From a virus (Duplodnaviria; Caudoviricetes), in IMG/VR virus record IMGVR_UViG_3300024259_000036, positions 1 to 58,587 of that record: a stretch of DNA of 58,587 nt. One strand, written 5' to 3'. A model generated the notes under the pieces. It was not told the origin of the DNA and searched no databases. It saw only the letters and a program-made list of their open reading frames with translations. Below, piece after piece: positions 350 through 50,219 of this stretch; positions within the stretch are counted from its first letter, which is position 1; every line of letters starts with the position of its first letter. Position numbers and translations under genes: made by a program.

Positions 350-1942
350 TTACAGTTTTATTTCTTTAATTTCATCCAAGGAAGAACCACCTTGTTCAAT
401 ATTACTCATTACATTAAAGATTTTTTCACTCCACCCTGAGATTAAATGAACATTATTATCCCTCATGTCCAATGGTGAACCACCATACCCACTTAAATCA
501 AACAAATATAACTTAGTCTTAGGTGAAATACTTCTATACCTATACCATAATCTGTTAATAGAATTTTTATCCCTACTATTAGAATTCCACATTTGACAGT
601 CAGTGAATATCATAATACGATCATATTTTGTCTTGGTTTTTAAACACCAATCCAAGACCTTCCAGCCATTAGTTGAATAACCTACTTCACCCTCCCGTTT
701 ATGAACTTCATTAGTTGCTTCCAGTATGTTATTAGAAGGTAAATCATCCAATACTTTCCATGTATCACCAAACATACCGACAGTTGCGTTGGCGCATCTG
801 TTTTGTAGTAACATTGCTAATAGTGTACCAATATCAAACAATTGTGTGGTTCCTCTTTCTGAAAAGGTATGTTGCATTGAACCAGATACATCAGTTGCTA
901 TCAACACATCCTCACCTGTGAACATTGGGATATTTTCCACAGAAATACATACTGCTTTTTCTAATGCTCTCAGCAGAGCCGGATGACAATTTTCATTTTC
1001 ACTAGTAGCATAATCATTCTCACCCCAATACATATTTCTAGCAGGATTTTGTCCCAATGCTCTATAAGCAGATAAGAATCTGAAAGGTAATTGTTTGGAT
1101 CTTTTTACTTGTTCATAATCTGACAACCTTTCAGCAACTTTATAGATATGTTCATTAGAAATTCCTTCCTTAACAAAATTTCTAAGGTTACGCAACATAG
1201 CCATATAACCCATCTTACCTGAATCAATCATATTTTCCCATACTTCTTTTTTACTTCCTTTGATCTCACCAGCCATTGACATTTCCACTTCCCAAGTATA
1301 AGGAATATCCAGATCATTATTTGCTAACTTATTAAACAGATCCTTTTGTTCTTGATTTTGTGGTTTAGGATGTGAAAGAAACAAAGCATCACGCAACTTA
1401 ATTTCAGTTTTCCTATTATACTTAGCAAGTTGATATTCATTGAACTTACCTGATTCAAATAAATCTTTAATACCTTTATTCATTTGATTGGATAGACCAT
1501 GAATAGTCTTGTAAGTAGTATGGTTACCTTTAGTTTTAATAACCTTAGGTTCTTTTTTATTAGCTTTAACATAATAGGATAACAATTCAGTGATTTCATC
1601 TGCACGTTGGACAACTCTTTTAGTTAAACGTCTAATAAGATCATCATTACCTTTATATATTTTAGTCAATTCAACTGCTAACACTAAAGGAATTGATCTC
1701 AAATACATCTTTTCCCTTGCATATACAGCCAATTGTGCAGCAAATAAAGGATCTACATTGCGTAAAGCAGTTTTGATCTTATTTAATTGGTCATTGGTAT
1801 TTGGAACATAGAACTTAGGTTGTAACGCAGAAGTGCAAACCATAGAATAGAGTTCCATTTCAGGTGTCAATTTGTATGAAGAGTCACCTTCGTGGTTTAT
1901 ATCTAAATACTTTTTTGATGCGGATACATTGAATCTTGCCAT
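350..1942 (-). CDS. rsr: Ro60/Rsr TROVE-domain RNA-binding protein with C-terminal vWA domain
   Basis: TROVE motifs (YAREKMYLRSIP, YQLAKY, LRDALFLSHPKP, TWE, GYMAMLRNLRN, SKQLPFRFLSAY) and vWA MIDAS DVSGSM..FTD. Confidence 0.93.
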   Translation of the reverse strand: MARFNVSASKKYLDINHEGDSSYKLTPEMELYSMVCTSALQPKFYVPNTNDQLNKIKTALRNVDPLFAAQLAVYAREKMYLRSIPLVLAVELTKIYKGNDDLIRRLTKRVVQRADEITELLSYYVKANKKEPKVIKTKGNHTTYKTIHGLSNQMNKGIKDLFESGKFNEYQLAKYNRKTEIKLRDALFLSHPKPQNQEQKDLFNKLANNDLDIPYTWEVEMSMAGEIKGSKKEVWENMIDSGKMGYMAMLRNLRNFVKEGISNEHIYKVAERLSDYEQVKRSKQLPFRFLSAYRALGQNPARNMYWGENDYATSENENCHPALLRALEKAVCISVENIPMFTGEDVLIATDVSGSMQHTFSERGTTQLFDIGTLLAMLLQNRCANATVGMFGDTWKVLDDLPSNNILEATNEVHKREGEVGYSTNGWKVLDWCLKTKTKYDRIMIFTDCQMWNSNSRDKNSINRLWYRYRSISPKTKLYLFDLSGYGGSPLDMRDNNVHLISGWSEKIFNVMSNIEQGGSSLDEIKEIKL

Positions 1943-12381: not shown

Positions 12382-12454
12382 TGGTGGCGGGTCAGGGATT
12401 TGAACCCTGCTTCCCAAGGTTATGAGCCTTAGTGGTTCACCAGAACTACCCGCT
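12382..12454 (-). tRNA. tRNA-Met(CAT), initiator-like, non-canonical cloverleaf
   Basis: A1:C72 mismatch, loop CT-CAT-AA, T-arm CAGGG-TTCAAAT-CCCTG, CCA. Confidence 0.8.
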
Positions 12455-12781: not shown

Positions 12782-12849
12782 TAAGATCCCCTTTCACATT
12801 TCAAAAAAGTTAATAATATAAACACTATACACTACAGTCAAAACTTTGT

Positions 12850-13013
12850 AAACTATTTATATGAGATATGATACCAGAGGCTATTTGATTTGGATGCAGT
12901 GCCAGGTTGTCCGCAACTACTTGACTAGTACAAGTAGGAGCCTTGTTTTTTTATCCTGTGTATGCCCAAGCCATCAGGGACAGTATAAATATCATACCTC
13001 ATATAAACAGTTT
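12850..13013 (-). ncRNA. Candidate structured RNA
   Basis: 24-bp closing stem, perfect with two G-U pairs on the minus strand; internal hairpins. Confidence 0.5.
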
Positions 13014-13193
13014 AAAATTCTTTGATTGCCTCCAGTCTATATTGGTACAGAGGCAACCAGCCCGTTAATAATACCCATCCACTCTACCCACGGACAAAGC
13101 AGTGGAATTTACGGTTCCAATTCAAACCCACGACATAGTTATACCCCTATATACAACGGGTTAATAAAGACATTCTCCCTACGAACTGAAATC

Positions 13194-13511
13194 ATCTTAC
13201 ATCATTTTGAATTTTCTGTAAACTGAAAAAATGCTTTCCGGAAAGACTTGGAAAAGGTTAACAGTTTCGTTGGCTTATGTATCATTAGTCAGGTGGTGCA
13301 CCACCCTTTCATAATACCTTCTGGGACGTCCAGATCTGCGATATAGTTTACGATTTATGTTTCCCGTGAAATTTCCCTCAACAACTGAAAACATCATATC
13401 AGATTCCCAGAAGTTCGTAAACATTAAAAATTCTGTAATCATTTCACACCGTTAGAAAAATCGTAATCATTTCAAACCCCTATCATAACATACGATCCCA
13501 GGATTGTAAAC
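13194..13511 (-). promoter_or_regulatory. Three leftward early promoters
   Basis: GTTTAC -35 at 13218, 13417, 13506 (minus strand) with TAAGAT/TATGAT -10 at matching spacing. Confidence 0.65.
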
Positions 13512-13538
13512 GAAAAAAATGACTGAATGGGATTCACC

Positions 13539-13950
13539 GTAACCACCTGAAATCATTGGGGCGGAGGATCGAGGAGGTGCTCAGCCAGAGTTCGGGTAGG
13601 TCATAGCCAGGCCCAAGTCTCGGAGATCGACCACCGTTGATCCTCCGGGTCTTCAGCGGGTATTCCTCCTCCTATAGGAGGGGATCTCCGGCCAGTAGGA
13701 CAGGGGCTCCCCTAAACCCCTAGAATTATTGAGATTTCCCTGAGAACCCGGAGGATTGAGGAGGTGCTCGGGGAGAGCTGGAGAAGGTCTAAGCCAGGCT
13801 CATGTCTCGGAGAACGATCCTCCTCGATCCTCCGGGTCGTCAGCCCCCATCTCCCTGTCCCTCAAATAATATCAGGGGGTTACCCGATTTTTCTCAGGAG
13901 CAGGAAGCCCAATATTTTCAGGGGCTTACTGTAACCCCGTAGAATTATTC
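13539..13950. repeat. Repeat/iteron cluster at the strand-switch point (candidate origin or terminus)
   Basis: Two about 95-nt direct repeats (13563-13657, 13750-13844), five copies of a 20-mer like GTAACCCCCTGAAATTATTG, 14-bp palindrome at 13668-13681. Confidence 0.75.
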
Positions 13951-14071
13951 AGAAAAAAATCTGGTTTACATATCTTTCTCCGCCTGTTATGCTTGTCATG
14001 ATTGATTTTGCGTTTTTCACTTGGAGGGATCATGTCATTTAAGGTAGTGAAATTGTTGAGAAACTTTTTTT

Positions 14072-14690
14072 GTTTACGGCTTCACGGAGAAATGATATGA
14101 TGTTTTCAGTTCGTAGGGAGTTCAACTTTTAAACATAACATTTTAACCGCTTACAGGTACGCCATAGACGATCTATGGGACGATCCGAGAACGCCACTGC
14201 AGGGGCTAAGTGTAGGATCGTTTTTAACCCTTTGATGTTAACCCCTTATCAAGTCTTTCCGGAAAGCACAGTTTCAAAACGTAACAATTTCAGATGATTA
14301 GCGAATATGAGAAAACATTTATCCTTTTGATCCATGACAATGTTTCCATAGAATTGCCACCAGAGGATCCGGTTTCCCCATATTCTCCAAGTGTCTGAAA
14401 CACTTGATGAAATAAAAAAGTTTACAGTTCGGAACGGTTGTTGTAAGATGGTTTCAGTCTTTGAGGGAAATGTTATGATAAAAATTTTTGATAAAACAGA
14501 TTTTGAAGATATGTTGGGAAGGGATATTGTAGAATTATTCCAAAAAAATGAAATTGACATTGTGGAATTGTTTGAATTTTTTGAAGAAAACGGAAGTGTA
14601 AATTTGGATTGGCATGACGTTAAATTTTTGTTGAAAAAAGTATTTACAACGGCAAACGGATGATATAAGATGGTTTCAGTCTTTGAGAGA
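14072..14690 (+). promoter_or_regulatory. Rightward early promoter battery
   Basis: (G/A)TTTAC at 14072, 14420, 14642 with TATGAT/TAAGAT -10 and shared TTTCAGT leader. Confidence 0.65.
14475..14663 (+). CDS. Small early hypothetical protein
   Basis: GAGGG RBS, ATG at 14475. Confidence 0.5.
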   Translation: MIKIFDKTDFEDMLGRDIVELFQKNEIDIVELFEFFEENGSVNLDWHDVKFLLKKVFTTANG

Positions 14691-19562: not shown

Positions 19563-19910
19563 ATGGGGTATAATTTAGCTGTAATAATTAATTTTGGTGT
19601 TGCTTTCGATGAAGATCAAGAGTTTCCATGGAATGATGATTTTGAAGGATGGTGGTTTGATATTTGCGGATCTGAAAAACTTCCATGTCCTGTTGAAATT
19701 GATTATTATGGTATAGATGAAAGGTTATGTGTTTCATTATATGTCCCAGGAACAAAATCAAGTGGATATGATTATCCAATTGATGTAGAACAAAGTTTGA
19801 AGAAAAAGGTAAGTGAAGAAGATGTTACAAAGTTTGAAGTATTTTTAGAGAAATATGGATTGGATACAGAAGGTGATCCAGCATGGTTAGCTTATTCTGT
19901 ATATTTTTAA
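19563..19910 (+). CDS. Hypothetical protein
   Basis: ORF with AGGAG RBS. Confidence 0.6.
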   Translation: MGYNLAVIINFGVAFDEDQEFPWNDDFEGWWFDICGSEKLPCPVEIDYYGIDERLCVSLYVPGTKSSGYDYPIDVEQSLKKKVSEEDVTKFEVFLEKYGLDTEGDPAWLAYSVYF

Positions 19911-19916
19911 AAATAA

Positions 19917-19957
19917 GTTTACATTTTTTGGAAAATTTGATACAATAAGTATAAATA
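19917..19957 (+). promoter_or_regulatory. Early and late promoters for the tRNA array
   Basis: GTTTAC..TACAAT and TATAAATA (19950-19957). Confidence 0.65.
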
Positions 19958-19974
19958 GATTCAGGAGATAATAA

Positions 19975-20064
19975 ATGAATTTTCGACTTTTACAAAATTA
20001 TAAAAATACGGCGAGACCAGCATGGTCAGATTCCCATAGTATTGCTGGAGAAACACCTATGTAA
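19975..20064 (+). CDS. Leader peptide MNFRLLQNYKNTARPAWSDSHSIAGETPM
   Basis: AGGAG RBS; 29 codons, 26 distinct; stop codon abuts the antiterminator strand. Confidence 0.75.
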   Translation: MNFRLLQNYKNTARPAWSDSHSIAGETPM

Positions 20065-20066
20065 TC

Positions 20067-20129
20067 GGCAGAAATCCATAAAAGAAGTTAAACAAGGGTT
20101 TCTGCCAAAAAAGTAGAAACCCTTTTTTT
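20067..20129 (+). terminator. Attenuator: terminator with competing antiterminator
   Basis: Terminator AAGGGTTTCTGC/GTAGAAACCCTT + T-run; GGCAGAAATCC (20067-20077) pairs with GGGTTTCTGCC (20096-20106). Confidence 0.8.
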
Positions 20130-20138
20130 ATGAAATGT

Positions 20139-20210
20139 GCTCCTGAGCTGAGGCAGCTAAACAGGCTCCAACCCTGTTACAAGTGGGATCGTTACCTACC
20201 AGGAGTGCCA
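20139..20210 (+). tRNA. tRNA-Trp(CCA), non-canonical
   Basis: GCTCCTG/CAGGAGT, AACAGG-CT-CCA-AC-CCTGTT, CCA. Confidence 0.75.
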
Positions 20211-20218
20211 ACATATAA

Positions 20219-20296
20219 GTGCCTGTAACTCAGTGGAATTAGAGATTTCGGCTACGAACCGAAAAGTCGGGGGTCCGAATCCCTCCAGGCACTCCA
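20219..20296 (+). tRNA. tRNA-Arg(ACG)
   Basis: Cloverleaf, TTCGG-CT-ACG-AA-CCGAA, CCA. Confidence 0.9.
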
Positions 20297-20341
20297 AAAT
20301 TTAAAAGATTTACAAAAATAATTGAATGTGATATAGTAGTT

Positions 20342-20449
20342 TTAGTTTAACTCAAAACCCCGTGACCAATTAGTTTACTTGGGGAAGCACACAAGCAGGG
20401 TGTATAGGAAGGGGTATTCGTCTGTTAAAATCAGAAGGGGTTAAACTAA
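20342..20449 (+). ncRNA. Candidate small RNA inside the tRNA array
   Basis: TTAGTTTAACTC/GGGTTAAACTAA closing stem, own promoter-like sequence upstream. Confidence 0.4.
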
Positions 20450-20452
20450 TAT

Positions 20453-21722: not shown

Positions 21723-22184
21723 ATGTCAAAGAGAAAATATACAAAAGAATTTTTGGAACCATTAGTAAAAGAAGCAAACTCTGTAAGAGATTTATTAAGA
21801 AAGATAAATGTTACTGATTCTGGAGGTTCTCACAAATTAATTTCTAAAAGGATAAAAGAATTTGAAATAAATACAAACCATTTTAAAGGTGGTCCAAGAG
21901 TACCACATAATAAATTAAGTTCAGATGATATATTAGTAGAAGATAGAACACCATATCATAAACAATTAAAAAGAGCATTAATAGAAATAGGAAGGTTATA
22001 TGAATGTGGTGAATGTAGTCAAGAATCTATATGGAATAATAAAGAATTAACATTACAAATAGATCATATTGATGGTAATAATAGAAATCAACTTAAAGAA
22101 AATTTAAGATTTTTATGTCCTAATTGTCATACCCAAACTAAAAATTGGGGTTTTAAAAATAAAATTCCACATAATAAAAAATAG
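21723..22184 (+). mobile_element. HNH homing endonuclease
   Basis: CGEC..LQIDHIDGNNRN..ENLRFLCPNCHTQT. Confidence 0.9.
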
Positions 22185-22274: not shown

Positions 22275-22349
22275 GATCCTGTCGTCTAAAAGTAAGGACA
22301 TGAGGCTTTCAACTTCAAAACCGGGGAGCGTTACCCCGTAGGATCACCA
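22275..22349 (+). tRNA. tRNA-Glu(TTC)
   Basis: Cloverleaf, variant T-loop AGCGTTA, CCA. Confidence 0.85.
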
Positions 22350-23250: not shown

Positions 23251-23934
23251 ATGATAAAAAGAGAATGTAAATATTGTAATAAAGAATTGGAATTTGATAA
23301 TGGATATCAATTTGGCGCTCATATAAGAAATTGTAAGTATAGACCTGATATTAAAGAAATAAATGATAGAGCGAGAAAAAATCAAACAAAAAGGAAATTA
23401 CATGATATTCAATGTCAAAAATGTGATAAAATATACCAATTAAACCTTACAGACTATGAAATTAAAATTGGTAAGCATAGGAAATATTGTTCTCCTGAAT
23501 GTAGAAAAAAAGAAAAAGTAGAAAAAATATGTTTAAATTGTAAAAAAATATTAATAAAAGGTCAGAAAAAATATTGTAATCATACCTGTCAACATGAATA
23601 TAAATATAATGAATATATAAAAAGATGGAAAGAAGGTTTAGAAGAAGGTCTACATGGTGAAAATGGTGAAAATGTAAATAAGAAAATACGAAAATATTTG
23701 TTCAAAAAATATAATAATAAGTGTGAAAGATGTAAATGGTCAATAAAAAATGAATTTACTAATAAAATACCGTTGACTGTTCATCATAAAGATGGAAATT
23801 ATAAAAATAATAAAGAAGTAAATTTAGAGCTTTTGTGTCCTAATTGTCATTCACTTACAGATAATTATGGTAGTAGAAATAAATCATCAAGTAAAACAAA
23901 AAGAAGTGAATGGAGAAAAAAAGTGCAGGTGTAG
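23251..23934 (+). mobile_element. HNH homing endonuclease with zinc fingers
   Basis: PLTVHHKDGN..NLELLCPNCHSLT; stop codon lies inside tRNA-Gly. Confidence 0.9.
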
Positions 23935-25345: not shown

Positions 25346-26293
25346 GTGAATAATATGTTTCGTAGATATTTCTCAATTGAAGGTACCTGGCGTAACAAAG
25401 AGATTCAATGGTGGATTGAAAAATATCCAGAACTTGAATCCCTTACATATGTCCTACAGGAAAAGATACATGGTGCTAATATATCATGGGTATTTGCATC
25501 TGATGGTTCATTTGAAATAGGTAAGAGAACCACTGTATTGACAAATGAAGATAATTTCTATAACTTCAAAATTATGTATGAAAAGTATGCTGATGTTATA
25601 ATCTTGTTGAAAGAGTTTGCTATTGAGAATAAATGTAATCTAAATGTCTTTGGTGAATGGTTTGGTAAGGGTATTCAAAAGGGTGTTGATTATGGACCGG
25701 AGAAACAGTTACTTTTTTATGATGTGTTGGTAGATAATGTTTTGTTGTCTCCTTTTGAAATGGAGGATTTCTTCTCATTACTGGATATTGAAGATATGAT
25801 GGTTACTAATTTTGGTACAGTTGATACATTACAGGAAGCCATTGATTTTGATACATCTACAAAGATTACTAAAGTTTATCCAGAGGGTAAGTCCATTGTT
25901 GAAGGTGTGGTTATCAAACCTTATTATAACACTAAGAGAAGTGAGAATGGTAAGACCTTTTACTTGAAGAACAAAAATGAGGTGTTCAAAGAGATCCAAA
26001 AGAAAAGAAAAAAGAATAAACCTAGGGTTGAGTATCCTGAGCATGTTGCGAGGTTAAGGACAGCCTTTGATGAGTATGTAACTGAAGCTAGGTTGAACAA
26101 TGTATTTTCTAAACACGGGGAGATTGAATCTAGTGATGATATTGGGAAATACATCAAACTGTTTCTGGAAGATGCTCAGGAGGAGTTTACAAAGGATTGG
26201 AAGATTGATATAATGGATTGTGATAAAAAAGAGTTAAAGTATGTATATAATGTAAGTAAAGAGATTGTGAAGATGTTGAAGGAGAGAATGTGA
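25346..26293 (+). CDS. rnl2: RNA ligase 2 (Rnl2 family)
   Basis: QEKIHGAN, FGEWFG, FYDV, EGVVIKP, LKNKN..FKE, RLNNVFSK. Confidence 0.92.
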   Translation: MNNMFRRYFSIEGTWRNKEIQWWIEKYPELESLTYVLQEKIHGANISWVFASDGSFEIGKRTTVLTNEDNFYNFKIMYEKYADVIILLKEFAIENKCNLNVFGEWFGKGIQKGVDYGPEKQLLFYDVLVDNVLLSPFEMEDFFSLLDIEDMMVTNFGTVDTLQEAIDFDTSTKITKVYPEGKSIVEGVVIKPYYNTKRSENGKTFYLKNKNEVFKEIQKKRKKNKPRVEYPEHVARLRTAFDEYVTEARLNNVFSKHGEIESSDDIGKYIKLFLEDAQEEFTKDWKIDIMDCDKKELKYVYNVSKEIVKMLKERM

Positions 26294-27823: not shown

Positions 27824-27856
27824 TTGCACGGTAACATTCTATATGTTACCGTGCAA
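27824..27856. other. Perfect 14-bp inverted repeat
   Basis: TTGCACGGTAACAT-tctat-ATGTTACCGTGCAA before tRNA-Arg. Confidence 0.6.
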
Positions 27857-30227: not shown

Positions 30228-30233
30228 AAATAT

Positions 30234-30306
30234 GGCAACACCTTATGGTAAGGACTTACGGCTCATATTCGTGATGTTCGGGGATCGTTACCCCGTGTTG
30301 CTTCCA
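30234..30306 (+). tRNA. tRNA-Met/Ile2(CAT), non-canonical
   Basis: GGCAACA/TGTTGCT, TTACGG-CT-CAT-AT-TCGTGA, CCA. Confidence 0.7.
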
Positions 30307-30318
30307 AAGGGGATAACA

Positions 30319-30624
30319 ATGAAAGTATATCTTGACGATGTAAGGATACCTTCCAGTGATTGGAAACTAGTTAAATGGCCCAATGAAGCAATCAAGTTAC
30401 TCAAGACAGGAAAGGTAACAGAAATAAGTCTTGATCATGATTTGGGTAATGATAGAAAAGGTACTGGTAATGATGTAATACTATGGATGGAAGAAAAGGT
30501 AATTAATTCAAGTTTTATACCTCCTAAGATTCATATACATACAGCCAATTCATCTGCCCGTAGTAAAATGGAAAAGGGAGTTAAAAGTATATTAAAACAT
30601 TATCATGAAGGCAATAAGAGGTAA
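30319..30624 (+). CDS. Cyclic-phosphate-processing receiver-domain protein
   Basis: MKVYLDDVR..ISLDHDLG..TG.DV..W..IHTAN..M. Confidence 0.8.
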   Translation: MKVYLDDVRIPSSDWKLVKWPNEAIKLLKTGKVTEISLDHDLGNDRKGTGNDVILWMEEKVINSSFIPPKIHIHTANSSARSKMEKGVKSILKHYHEGNKR

Positions 30625-42332: not shown

Positions 42333-42932
42333 ATAAGTTATAAAATTGTTGTATAATTTACCCTCATAATATAAATATGTTATGAGGGTATTTTTTGCTG
42401 TTTACATTCTATAATAAATAGATTATAATATAGGAGTCTGAATATGAAATTTTTTCAAAAAATTATGATTGATGATTTTCTTAATGAGGCACCTTTAAAT
42501 GCCAAAGGGTGGACAGAAAAAAGCGTTAAGAAATTTGAGAAAACAATTGGCAAGAAAGCAGATGCCCATGGATTCTTTGATGCATGTGTTGGAAGAATGG
42601 GAAAACATATGGGTGATCAAGCTAAAGGATTTTGTGCTGCTATGAAAGATAAGAAGTATGATAGCACATATTGGAGAGGAAAGGATAAGAGTAAAAAGGA
42701 GATAAAACAAAAAGTTAAAGATAATCCATACAAAGAAGGTAAAAAGAAATGAAAATAGATGAAAAGATTGGTAAATATTTAAAGGGAAAATTAACCTTTA
42801 AAAAAACAAGAGATAAATTAAAAAGTGATAAAGAAGAAAGGAAGGAAATTGATAAGGAAATTGAGAAAATCAATAAGGAAATTGAAAGACTTAGAAATAT
42901 TAGAAAGAAATTTGAATTAAAGAAGTAACTTT

Positions 42933-43300
42933 GGGGATGACTGGTTTCGACTGGCTAGTGTTTAGTGAAGGTTGCATCCAGTGTAATTGTGATTATTACA
43001 CTTTAAACTTTATCACAAACATAAAATAATCGCAGATGATTATGAATTACGGATGGCTGCTTAACCAGCTGTTCCATTCTCTTACTTGCCTTCCTGGGCG
43101 AGTAATGTAGGGTGCCGACTAAACAGGATGCGTTATACACCTTATCATGTCATGAGGTGTATAACTAAGGTATTGTGACATGATCAATAGGTAGTTTATA
43201 AAGTTTGGACCTATTGAGACTTACAAACTTTATAATGGATGTATATCAATCGTCAAGGAATATAGTTAGGACGAGGGTTCGACTCCCTCCATCTCCACCA
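42933..43300 (+). ncRNA. ssrA: tmRNA, tag (A)ADDYELRMAA
   Basis: GGGGATGA..TTCGAC 5' end; T-arm and CTCCACCA 3' end; tag ORF 43032-43064. Confidence 0.93.
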
Positions 43301-48552: not shown

Positions 48553-49308
48553 ATGAAATCTGTATTTGTTGAAGAAAAAACCATTGATAGTATGTGGTTC
48601 AAATTACTATCAGAAGTATATGATAAGGGTAGAGTAAATCATATTGATAATGGATCCTTCGCAGGTTCAAATAGACTTGAGTTTGATTTTGTTAGTGGTA
48701 CTATTCATTACCCAACAGTAAGACCATTGGCACCTATTGTTGATGCCAATCAACCATCTATAACAACTGATGAGGATATAGAAAAATATTTTGTAACTTA
48801 TTTGATGGATGGCTCATTAGAGGACAACGAGGAATATAAGTATGCGACTTTTATTAATGGTGGATATTATAAGATATTTTTAAGTGAAATGTTTGGTGGT
48901 AGAAATGAGATTACTGTGAAGGTTCCAAACCAAATTCAGTGGTGTATTGATCACTATAAAAAGAAAGGATTTGGTAATAATCATTGCGTAATTCAAATTG
49001 GTTATCCAGAATCAAATTTGGTATATGATAAACCCTATGAAACTGAAACTGAAAGGGGTACCTCACCTTGTTTAAGGTTGATTGATACGAAAATATTTGA
49101 CAATACTTTACATTTTCATATAATATTCAGGAGTTGGGATCTTTTTGGAGGATTTCCGGTCAATATGGGAGGATTTGTAATGTTAATGGAGTATATGGCT
49201 AATGAATTAGGTGTTGAAGTTGGTACACTTTCATTCAGTTGCTTGAAACTTCATTGTTACGATTTTCAACTAGAAGCTGTTGCTTCACGGTTAGGTAAAA
49301 TAGAATGA
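48553..49308 (+). CDS. thyA: Thymidylate synthase-family protein
   Basis: SPCLR.ID, FRSWD..GFPVN, LH.Y. Confidence 0.8.
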   Translation: MKSVFVEEKTIDSMWFKLLSEVYDKGRVNHIDNGSFAGSNRLEFDFVSGTIHYPTVRPLAPIVDANQPSITTDEDIEKYFVTYLMDGSLEDNEEYKYATFINGGYYKIFLSEMFGGRNEITVKVPNQIQWCIDHYKKKGFGNNHCVIQIGYPESNLVYDKPYETETERGTSPCLRLIDTKIFDNTLHFHIIFRSWDLFGGFPVNMGGFVMLMEYMANELGVEVGTLSFSCLKLHCYDFQLEAVASRLGKIE

Positions 49309-50219
49309 AACTCTGTTGGGATAATATAGAAAATATAAGACTTACTAAGAACAGTAATTTTCGTGATATAGTAAAAGAAAAAACATATTATTTGAAAGTA
49401 TGTAAGAAATGTGAAGAAGAATATTTTGGTTATAACAATAGTATGTCATGTTCCGCAAGTTGCTCAAGTAGAAGAAAACATACAAAAGAAGCAAAGAAAA
49501 AAATGAGTGAAATAAAAAAAGGTAAAAAGGCTTCTGATGAAACTAAATTAAAAATGAGTAAATCTCGTAGAGGTGAGAAAAATGGTTTCTTTGGTAAAAT
49601 ACATTCAAAGGAAACAAGAAAAAAATTGAGTAAGAAATTGAGCAATGAAAATTCTACTAATTGGAAAGGAGGGGTTACTAAAAAGAATATACCATTATAT
49701 GATACTTATGCTCCCCAACTTGAATGGACAGAGAAGATAAGACGAAACAAGGAAGACCAAAATGTACTAGAGGTGAAATGTTTTAAGTGTGGTAAGTGGT
49801 ATATACCTAAAAGGTCAAATGTAAAACATAGAATAAATTCATTAAATGGCAAAGAAGGACATCATAGATTTTATTGTTCTGATAATTGTAAGAACTCATG
49901 TTCAATATTTCACAAATCAGCAGATATATTAATGAAGGAGGATGCAATACGAGCTGGTAGACTGAAATGGTTAGAACTTAATAGAGAAGTTCAACCTGAA
50001 TTACGAAAAATGGTGCTGGAAAGAGATAAATATCAATGTGTTAAATGTGGTAGTATTGACAATTTACATTGTCACCACATATTACCAGTGTCAATTGAAC
50101 CACTATTGAGTACTGATATAGATAATTGTATGACTTTGTGTATTGATTGCCATAAGGAAGCACACCAAAAGGATGGATGCAGGTATGAACAATTAAAAAT
50201 GGAGTTATGTATAAAATAA
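49305..50219 (+). mobile_element. HNH homing endonuclease with NUMOD3
   Basis: ERD.YQCVKCG..LHCHHI.P..DNC.TLC..CH. Confidence 0.88.

What the first reader, a model, noticed from the sequence alone, without database searches (positions are those of the whole stretch)
19917..20210. Codon-sampling leader-peptide attenuator gating the phage tRNA array
Seen: promoters, then an RBS, a 29-codon ORF, a strong intrinsic terminator and the first tRNA. The ORF uses 26 distinct codons and 18 amino acids (no Cys or Val). Every repeated residue except Asn and Met uses different synonymous codons (Arg CGA/AGA, Leu CTT/TTA, Ala GCG/GCA/GCT, Ser TCA/TCC/AGT, Thr ACG/ACA, Pro CCA/CCT). Two nt after the stop, GGCAGAAATCC can pair over 11 bp with the terminator 5' arm. 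Established: trp/his-type attenuation logic. Inference: a ribosome reaching the stop masks the antiterminator, so transcription terminates. A stall at almost any codon, for example after host anticodon-nuclease cleavage, frees it and switches on the phage tRNAs. This would be a general tRNA-depletion sensor rather than a single-amino-acid sensor.
Basis: partly seen in the sequence, partly recalled or inferred. Interest (0 to 1): 0.92.

Follow-up and report, generated by a model that had tools for sequence, protein, structure and literature searches.

The report
Translation-sensing attenuator before phage tRNA genes
A tiny translated gene followed by a switchable transcription stop sits just before the first tRNA genes of an uncultured marine giant phage and one diverged relative, and it probably lets transcription run into those tRNA genes when ribosomes read the tiny gene too slowly.

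Summary
An early-type promoter (19918-19946), an AGGAG ribosome site, a 29-codon ORF (19975-20064), an 11-bp antiterminator (20067-20077 with 20096-20106) and a strong terminator (20094-20129) lie directly before a divergent tRNA-Trp-like gene (20139-20210) and tRNA-Arg(ACG).

- **Pairing:** the alternative pairing beats 0 of 1000 shuffles and 0 of 970 natural windows. The three other strong terminators in the window have none.
- **Conservation:** the unit recurs in one diverged relative, L017 (Rnl2 49% identical). Its ORF has 34 codons, in frame and 52% identical. The stop-to-antiterminator spacing is the same 2 nt, and the RNA switch is 91% identical across three sequences. One antiterminator pair reads C-G / U·G / U-A.
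- **Codon diversity:** it is unusual in both lineages (P about 0.002 to 0.035, depending on the null).
- **Switch logic:** no trp-like region 1 is supported, so an untranslated leader should read through.

Best reading (0.55): a ribosome-arrival-timed attenuator. It is a new variant of leader-peptide attenuation.

"Gating the array" is overstated, because internal promoters follow. The anticodon-nuclease link is untested, and nothing here is experimental. This scan has noted analogous units on other phage DNA, none alike in sequence.

The parts
19918..19946 (+). Early-type sigma-70 promoter: TTTACA, 17 nt, TACAAT, with a TG extension
   Evidence: 10 of 12 matches. Conserved in L017 at 1422-1450.
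19963..19967 (+). Shine-Dalgarno AGGAG, 7 nt before the ATG
   Evidence: L017 has AAGGA 8 nt before its ATG.
19975..20064 (+). Leader ORF: 29 codons plus TAA, 26 distinct codons, 18 amino acids. Rare codons are CGA (19984-19986), ACG and GCG (20008-20013). The single Trp codon TGG is at 20023-20025.
   Evidence: The homologue in L017 has 34 codons and is 52% identical.
20067..20077 (+). Antiterminator 5' arm GGCAGAAATCC, starting 2 nt after the stop codon
20078..20095 (+). Antiterminator loop / spacer. CATA(A/G)AAGAAGT is conserved between lineages.
20096..20106 (+). Antiterminator 3' arm GGGTTTCTGCC. It overlaps the terminator 5' arm (20094-20105).
20094..20129 (+). Intrinsic terminator: 12-bp stem (20094-20105 with 20113-20124), 7-nt loop, T7 tract 20123-20129
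20139..20210 (+). Divergent tRNA-Trp(CCA)-like cloverleaf. Anticodon at 20168-20170, T-loop AUCGUUA, 3' GCCA.
   Evidence: Missed. A canonical tRNA-Trp sits at the same place in L017. A strain variant changes only the variable loop.
20219..20296 (+). tRNA-Arg(ACG), the last gene before the next promoter
20309..20337 (+). Next early-type promoter (TTTACA, 17 nt, TATAGT). It bounds the part of the array that depends on read-through.
   Evidence: Equivalent site in L017 at 1919-1947.

Best explanation
This is a ribosome-dependent transcription attenuator. Transcripts from the early promoter, and from genes upstream, carry a 29-codon leader ORF.

As RNA polymerase moves on, the segment 2 nt after the stop codon pairs with the next G-rich segment. 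This antiterminator forms before the terminator's 3' arm exists.

- If a ribosome has already reached the stop codon, its footprint covers about 8 of the 11 antiterminator nucleotides. The terminator hairpin and U-tract then form, and transcription ends at about 20125-20129.
- If the ribosome is late, the antiterminator holds. Lateness could come from slow initiation or from slow decoding of any of the 26 different codons, including the conserved rare CGA and GCG and the single UGG. Polymerase then runs into the tRNA-Trp-like gene and tRNA-Arg(ACG), and possibly further.

The default state without translation is therefore read-through, unlike the trp leader.

Shown here: the sequence elements, their non-randomness, the energetics and order of folding, and conservation in a second lineage.

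Inferred: that the ORF is translated, that the terminator works, that ribosome position decides the outcome, and what the physiological signal is. My split of the 0.55 is about 0.35 for a general translation-speed or tRNA-pool sensor and about 0.2 for feedback through particular codons.
For: - Elements and geometry.
- Near-isoenergetic alternative hairpins: antiterminator -17.4, terminator -16.1 kcal/mol.
- In all three sequence variants the antiterminator is the minimum-energy fold before the 3' arm emerges (-17.2, -15.1, -15.2). The terminator is the fold once the 14 nt from the stop codon on are masked.
- The antiterminator duplex is reached by 0 of 1000 shuffles (two upstream lengths) and 0 of 970 natural windows. 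The three other strong terminators show nothing comparable.
- Only four strong terminators occur in 58.6 kb, and this one lies 9 nt before a tRNA-like gene with no room for a promoter.
- The homologous unit in L017 also sits directly before tRNA-Trp. Rnl2 is 49% identical and an upstream 146/144-aa gene 56% identical.
- Its ORF has a ribosome site, is open and in frame despite a 5-codon length difference, and is 52% identical, like the neighbouring proteins.
- The stop-to-arm spacing is the same 2 nt.
- The stretch from the last two ORF codons to the T-tract has 91% mean column identity.
- The antiterminator is paired in 33 of 33 cells, and one pair reads C-G / U.G / U-A. The terminator is paired in 36 of 36 cells.
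- Rare CGA and GCG codons (2.2 and 1.9 per 1000 in the window; 1.8 and 1.1 in L017) are kept at aligned positions.
- Codon diversity is unusual in both leaders.
Against: - There is no experimental datum. The one RNA-library contig laid on the stretch covers only 20209-20403 and says nothing about termination.
- Only two lineages plus one close variant are known. Covariation therefore rests on one pair and is not significant (327 of 500 shuffles reach it). The helices are conserved rather than covarying.
- There are no runs of regulatory codons and no supported pause or anti-antiterminator hairpin, so coupling of ribosome and polymerase is assumed.
- At equilibrium the L017 and L051 RNAs favour the terminator (P 0.997 and 0.983). 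The window RNA favours the antiterminator (P 0.937). The switch must therefore be kinetic.
- The peptide is as conserved as an ordinary protein, so it could have a function of its own.
- The tRNA-Trp-like gene escapes both tRNA finders and may not be a working tRNA.
Confidence: 0.55

Rival explanations
1. An ordinary small early gene with its own promoter and a plain, partly leaky terminator. The upstream complement is conserved for another reason, such as 3'-end stability or processing of the leader RNA or tRNA precursor. The tRNAs are made by constitutive read-through.
For: - The ORF carries the same expression signals as the window's other genes.
- It evolves at the same rate as neighbouring proteins: 52% identity against 56% and 51%.
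- Both peptides were called as genes in public collections.
- There are no regulatory codon runs and no significant covariation.
Against: - An 11-bp complement to the terminator arm, placed exactly 2 nt after the stop, is reached by no shuffle or natural window, and is absent from the other three strong terminators.
- That segment is far better conserved (91%) than the ORF or the neighbouring proteins.
- It would compete with the terminator in any case.
Confidence: 0.2
2. The same attenuator, but codon-specific. It would report decoding of the conserved rare CGA (read by tRNA-Arg ACG/ICG) and of UGG, giving negative feedback of the Trp and Arg(ACG) tRNA genes by their own products, rather than acting as a general sensor.
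For: - CGA, GCG and TGG are kept at aligned positions in both lineages, although CGA and GCG are 4-5% of their codon families.
- Both arrays start Trp, (Phe), Arg(ACG), then a promoter, then Ala(TGC).
Against: - There is one codon of each, with no tandem runs.
- With 18 of 20 amino acids present, some match is expected.
- The same-codon rate at conserved residues (6 of 9) is not clearly above that of neighbouring genes (19 of 39 and 32 of 72).
- The idea was formed after seeing the data.
Confidence: 0.15
3. A terminator/antiterminator switch set by a trans-acting factor rather than by the ribosome. The factor could be a phage or host RNA-binding antiterminator protein, a small RNA or a tRNA. 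The ORF would be a separate small protein gene.
For: - The alternative hairpins are real and conserved.
- The 18-20-nt antiterminator loop contains a conserved CATA(A/G)AAGAAGT that the ribosome model does not explain.
Against: - No Rfam family, riboswitch or T-box matches, even at E up to 10.
- The conserved 2-nt spacing of the stop codon and the arm, despite a 5-codon change in ORF length, is what a ribosome-masking design predicts.
Confidence: 0.1
4. A nascent-peptide arrest element. The conserved TA(R/S)PAWS core and the C-terminal Pro-Met-stop would stall the ribosome at the stop codon in response to a ligand, prolonging the masking of the antiterminator.
For: The peptide motifs T-A-x-P-A-W-S and P-M-stop are invariant between lineages at 52% overall identity.
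Against: - The Trp-to-C-terminus distance differs (W17 to M29 against W20 to M34).
- No match in PHROGs.
- Only the two peptides themselves turn up among 1.84 billion representatives.
- Part of the conservation may lie at the nucleotide level.
Confidence: 0.06

Closest known systems
Classical leader-peptide transcription attenuators of amino-acid operons (trpL, hisL, pheL and others). Their geometry is recalled from general knowledge. pheL was seen only in the listing and abstract start of PMC3082878.
   Same: - A short translated leader ORF with its own ribosome site.
- An intrinsic terminator before the regulated genes.
- An antiterminator that shares a strand with the terminator.
- A stop codon a few nucleotides before the antiterminator arm, so that a terminating ribosome favours termination.
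- About 65-70 nt from the stop to the end of the terminator.
   Different: - No run of cognate codons; the leader has 26 different codons.
- No supported region 1 or pause hairpin, so absence of translation should give read-through instead of super-attenuation.
- The regulated genes are tRNA genes of a virus, not biosynthetic genes.
Multipurpose or translation-stress-sensing uORFs. These include toiL of E. coli topAI-yjhQ (PMC12121999, abstract read) and ribosome-mediated attenuators before antibiotic-resistance ABCF genes (PMC8546547 and PMC10201436, listing only).
   Same: A uORF whose translation reports general translation stress. Ribosomes delayed at different positions change a downstream RNA structure and switch genes on.
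   Different: - toiL acts through occlusion of a ribosome-binding site and Rho-dependent termination, not through an intrinsic terminator.
- The known cases are cellular and respond to antibiotics.
- Here the output is phage tRNA genes, and the signal is unknown.
T-box riboswitches (recalled)
   Same: They couple tRNA status to an antiterminator/terminator choice.
   Different: They have no ORF and sense uncharged tRNA directly through Stem I and the T-box bulge. No such elements or Rfam match are found here.
TnaC-type arrest peptide (recalled)
   Same: A short leader with a conserved Trp and a Pro near the C terminus, whose ribosome at the stop codon decides termination downstream.
   Different: TnaC acts on Rho-dependent termination with a fixed Trp-Pro spacing. 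Here the spacing varies and the terminator is intrinsic.

Membership tests
Leader-peptide (ribosome-mediated) transcription attenuators | A short ORF with a ribosome-binding site in the 5' leader, kept open in relatives | tested here: met
   AGGAG, 7 nt, ATG, 29 codons. The L017 homologue has 34 codons, is in frame and is 52% identical. Translation itself was not measured.
Leader-peptide (ribosome-mediated) transcription attenuators | An intrinsic terminator between the leader ORF and the regulated genes | tested here: met
   A 12-bp stem and T7 tract at 20094-20129, 9 nt before the first tRNA-like gene. The stems are identical in L017.
Leader-peptide (ribosome-mediated) transcription attenuators | A mutually exclusive antiterminator that shares the terminator's 5' arm | tested here: met
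   An 11-bp helix of -17.4 kcal/mol. It is reached by 0 of 1000 shuffles and 0 of 970 natural windows, and is paired in 33 of 33 cells across three sequences.
Leader-peptide (ribosome-mediated) transcription attenuators | ORF end placed so that a ribosome at the stop codon occludes the antiterminator arm | tested here: met
   The arm starts 2 nt after the TAA in both lineages despite a 5-codon difference in ORF length. Masking 14 nt gives the terminator fold. The footprint size is recalled.
Leader-peptide (ribosome-mediated) transcription attenuators | Tandem or clustered regulatory codons cognate to the regulated pathway | tested here: not met
   One TGG and one CGA, with 26 distinct codons of 29.
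Leader-peptide (ribosome-mediated) transcription attenuators | An anti-antiterminator / pause hairpin (region 1:2) | tested here: not met
   The best ORF-to-arm duplex is reached by 495 of 1000 shuffles (window) and 165 of 1000 (L017). The antiterminator has P about 1.0 in the untranslated nascent leader. The RNAalifold helix is not supported by this test.
Leader-peptide (ribosome-mediated) transcription attenuators | Read-through that depends on translation of the leader | not testable with these tools
   Needs a reporter, in vitro transcription or Term-seq.
T-box riboswitch | Stem I specifier loop and a T-box antiterminator bulge; Rfam model match | tested here: not met
   No Rfam match in 19900-20218 at E up to 10.
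TnaC-type arrest peptides | Fixed spacing of the conserved Trp and the C-terminal Pro; Rho-dependent termination | tested here: not met
   W-to-P spacing is 11 against 13 residues. The terminator is intrinsic.
tRNA (for 20139-20210) | Cloverleaf with a 7-nt anticodon loop, a canonical T-loop, and recognition by tRNA models | tested here: inconclusive
   A perfect cloverleaf with loop CUCCAAC and 3' GCCA. The T-loop is AUCGUUA and neither ARAGORN nor Rfam matches it. Its position is that of tRNA-Trp in L017.

The most novel reading that the evidence does not exclude
The leader is a deliberately codon-diverse 'test message'. Because the switch is on by default and turned off only by a ribosome that arrives at the stop codon in time, it measures the cell's overall decoding capacity. 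It would raise transcription of the phage's own tRNA genes, and by read-through perhaps the tRNA-repair ligase further on, whenever host tRNAs are scarce or are being cut by defence nucleases. That would make it a virus-encoded pan-tRNA sensor.
Probability: 0.22. Interest if true: 0.9.

Novelty: new variant of a known kind. Interest (0 to 1): 0.7.

Why it matters
Phage tRNA arrays are now seen as counter-measures to tRNA-cleaving host defences (PMC10264068, abstract start in the listing plus a term search; PMC11555353, listing and abstract start). How phages control these arrays is barely studied.

A conserved, translation-timed attenuator in front of tRNA genes would show three things. Attenuation logic would extend to tRNA genes themselves. 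A virus would be monitoring the host's decoding capacity. And a leader without codon runs could serve as a general sensor.

The unit is about 215 nt long and self-contained, so the idea is directly testable with reporter fusions.

Five full-text searches and one paper term search found no description of leader-peptide attenuation of tRNA genes.

Tried and rejected
**Searches for relatives**
- The 115-aa upstream protein, the exact terminator and the single Rnl2 protein found nothing in viral contigs.
- The 115-aa protein has only itself among 5.8 billion proteins.
- The tRNA-Trp anticodon-arm pattern gave 10 loci, all tRNA-Trp genes of unrelated phages.
- A lineage-specific tRNA-Trp pattern found nothing in metagenome contigs.
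- The terminator pattern found only the L017 contig.
- The spacer pattern gave 4 stretches. One was the L017 contig and 3 were chance matches inside coding sequence.
- The tRNA-Arg pattern gave 5 metagenome loci: L048 (the same as L017 over the stretch shown), the variant L051, and three unrelated arrays without the leader.
- The same tRNA-Arg pattern gave 2 viral loci. L058 holds only a fragment.
- Both genome-contig scans were empty.
- Covariance model R1 found only the three known copies in 655,825 and 38,724 bases and in 4 whole records (L048's record is not held and was not searched). The best other hit, L013:8798-8875 at 23.5 bits, is an AT-rich stretch with no terminator hairpin and no likeness to the leader by eye.
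- The other Rnl2-bearing phages with tRNAs (L013, L014) show no comparable unit.

**Other searches**
- The peptide profile against 1.84 billion representatives gave only the two peptides and 4 long repetitive proteins.
- A peptide search with the search for homologous proteins could not run because the query is under 40 aa.
- Sequencing runs: the leader is covered only by contigs identical to the window. The one diverged contig starts at 20121. The RNA-library contig covers 20209-20403 only. So there is no evidence on transcript ends.
- PHROGs found nothing for the leader peptide or its neighbours.
- INPHARED holds no close relative by DNA.

**Ideas rejected**
- A trp-like region 1:2 helix proposed by RNAalifold is not beyond chance.
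- A PeSL-type repeated cassette (recalled concept): the terminator sequence is not repeated in the window.

Full report
**Setting.** The window is an IMG/VR virus record of 58,587 bases, estimated 24% complete, so it comes from a phage of roughly 240 kb. GC content is about 32%.
- It carries a tmRNA and 26 tRNA genes found by ARAGORN. Rfam adds one more tRNA, and I add two tRNA-like cloverleaves.
- It also encodes a Ro60/TROVE protein, an NAD-dependent DNA ligase, ribonucleotide reductase, a primase, a clamp loader, and an Rnl2 RNA ligase inside the tRNA array.
- Public runs that hold the stretch are all labelled seawater metagenomes: 24 of 24 listed, 8 of them with at least half of the sampled words.
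- The nearest cultured phages share only about 31-34% identity in the clamp loader and Rnl2.

**The observation.**
- Promoter: TTTACA, 17 nt, TACAAT, with a TG extension, at 19918-19946.
- Ribosome site: AGGAG, 7 nt before the ATG.
- ORF: 29 codons at 19975-20064.
- Terminator: a 12-bp stem and T7 tract at 20094-20129.
- Antiterminator arm: GGCAGAAATCC, starting 2 nt after the TAA. It pairs over 11 bp with 20096-20106, a segment that overlaps the terminator's 5' arm.
- Generic promoter-like and terminator-like matches are not enriched in the region as a whole. There are 74 promoter-like sites against 60.8 ± 7.8 in shuffles, and 6 terminator-like sites against 5.4 ± 2.9. The case therefore rests on the specific tests below.

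**Is it more than chance?**
- The antiterminator duplex scores -20.2 kcal/mol. That value is reached by 0 of 1000 dinucleotide shuffles of the upstream 40 nt, by 0 of 1000 shuffles of the upstream 120 nt, and by 0 of 970 natural 120-nt windows of the phage (the lowest natural value is -19.2).
- My own scan finds only four strong terminators in the window. The other three have no upstream complement; 293 to 972 of 1000 shuffles reach their values.
- As hairpins, the antiterminator (-17.4) and the terminator (-16.1) are nearly equal in energy.

**Folding order.**
- Before the terminator's 3' arm is transcribed, the antiterminator is the minimum-energy fold.
- If the 14 nt from the stop codon on are masked, as a terminating ribosome would do (the footprint size is recalled), the terminator is the fold.
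- A trp-like region 1 was suggested by RNAalifold but is not beyond chance; 495 and 165 of 1000 shuffles reach it. In an untranslated nascent leader the antiterminator has a probability of 1.000 in the window and 0.994 in L017.
- The design is therefore two hairpins plus ribosome masking. It is on by default and is turned off by a ribosome that reaches the stop codon in time.

**What lies downstream.**
- Nine nucleotides after the T-tract, 20139-20210 folds as a perfect cloverleaf with anticodon loop CUCCAAC and a 3' GCCA (-28.7 kcal/mol; 3 of 200 shuffles fold as well).
- ARAGORN and Rfam miss it even at E up to 10. Its T-loop is AUCGUUA.
- Its anticodon arm is identical to that of tRNA-Trp genes in 10 unrelated phage contigs.
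- A strain variant changes only its variable loop.
- tRNA-Arg(ACG) follows at 20219-20296, and then a new promoter at 20309-20337.
- There is no room for a promoter between the terminator and the cloverleaf, so these two genes need read-through.
- The rest of the array has promoter-like sites of the same TTTACA-N17 type of its own (20638, 22816, 26186, 27163, 29106). 'Gating the array' is therefore too broad.

**Relatives.** Most searches found nothing (see Tried and rejected).
- An alignment of Rnl2 relatives retrieved 35 viral loci.
- One of them, L017, has Rnl2 49% identical. Its syntenic array starts Trp(CCA), Phe, Arg(ACG), Ala(TGC).
- Directly before its tRNA-Trp lies the homologous unit. 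It has the TTTACA promoter, a ribosome site and a 34-codon ORF. After the TAA come 2 nt and then GGTAGAAATCC. The conserved spacer follows, and the terminator stems are identical to the window's. This is again the only strong + strand terminator in 16 kb.
- A tRNA-Arg pattern found the same unit on a 161-kb metagenome contig (L048), and a close variant, L051.
- Across the three sequences, the stretch from the last two ORF codons to the T-tract has 91% mean column identity.
- Neighbouring proteins are only 51-56% identical.
- All 33 antiterminator cells and all 36 terminator cells are paired.
- One antiterminator pair reads C-G (window), U.G (L017) and U-A (L051).
- With three sequences this is not statistically significant; 327 of 500 shuffles reach it.

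**The ORF.**
- The two peptides are 52% identical, with 15 invariant columns that include T-A-x-P-A-W-S and the final P-M.
- The length difference of 5 codons keeps the frame.
- Identity equals that of neighbouring real genes. The same codon is used at 6 of 9 conserved degenerate residues, against 19 of 39 and 32 of 72 in two real genes.
- Both peptides exist as called genes in public collections, the L017 form on 16 contigs. A variant of the window peptide with two substitutions is on record.
- I conclude that the frame is maintained, which fits translation.

**Codon diversity.**
- Window: 26 of 29 codons distinct. Natural 29-codon windows average 19.55 ± 2.14 and reach 26 in 0.29% of 2034. 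Off-frame stop-free windows reach it in 0.13% of 2241. Draws from genomic codon usage give P 0.0016. With the peptide held fixed, P is 0.051. Draws from the ORF's own base composition give P 0.035.
- L017: 29 of 34 codons distinct, again 18 amino acids without Cys or Val. Three of 496 natural windows reach it. P is 0.0016, 0.020 and 0.026 under the same three nulls.
- The two leaders are homologous, so these are not independent tests. The window's value was noticed before it was tested.
- The rare codons CGA and GCG are kept at aligned positions.
- This fits a general sensor, selection for slow codons, or feedback through the Arg(ACG) and Trp tRNAs. I cannot separate these three.

**Comparison with what is known.**
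- The unit works like a leader-peptide attenuator. It meets four structural criteria of that family. It fails two: there are no cognate codon runs and no region 1.
- In logic it is closer to uORFs that sense general translation stress, such as toiL (PMC12121999, abstract). That one acts through Rho.
- No Rfam family matches.
- Five full-text searches, and a term search inside PMC10264068, found no attenuation of tRNA genes in print.

**Earlier notes of this scan.** They describe 70 analogous findings in at least 65 other genomes. None is alike in sequence to this unit. These are unchecked leads, and I did not examine their DNA.

**Verdict.** The best reading is a ribosome-arrival-timed attenuator controlling the first two tRNA genes (confidence 0.55). 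It is a new variant of a known kind. All evidence is computational and rests on two lineages.

Noticed in passing
window 20139-20210, 22275-22346, 30234-30305: Three tRNA-like cloverleaves carry unusual T-loops with A at position 54 and U at position 58: Trp(CCA)-like (AUCGUUA), Glu(UUC) (AGCGUUA, found by Rfam only) and a CAU-anticodon one (AUCGUUA). The last overlaps ORF 30232-30624. ATCGTTA occurs 13 times in the window against 4.6 expected.
   Followed up: partly
window 20338-20452: An ORF-free stretch lies between the promoter at 20309-20337 and tRNA-Ala. It folds at -28.3 kcal/mol (z -1.9). An RNA-library contig covers 20209-20403. In L017 the same position holds a small Cys-rich ORF.
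   Followed up: partly
window 350-1942 (-): A phage-encoded Ro60/TROVE protein with a vWA domain. No Y RNA was found by Rfam at gathering scores.
   Followed up: no
window 25346-26293; 21723-22184; 23251-23934: An Rnl2-type RNA ligase and two HNH endonuclease genes are embedded in the tRNA array. A third HNH/NUMOD3 gene lies at 49305-50219.
   Followed up: partly
window 42933-43300: A phage tmRNA with tag peptide ADDYELRMAA. A terminator-plus-early-promoter cassette lies at 42359-42420, upstream of the preceding gene.
   Followed up: no
window ~12800-14250: An ORF-poor stretch richer in GC (about 0.42 against 0.32) lies where the coding strand switches, next to a lone minus-strand tRNA-Met at 12382-12454.
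   Followed up: no
window 27824-27856: A 14-bp hairpin lies 15 nt before tRNA-Arg(TCT). It scores as a terminator only on the minus strand; on the plus strand it is followed by AAAATAG.
   Followed up: no
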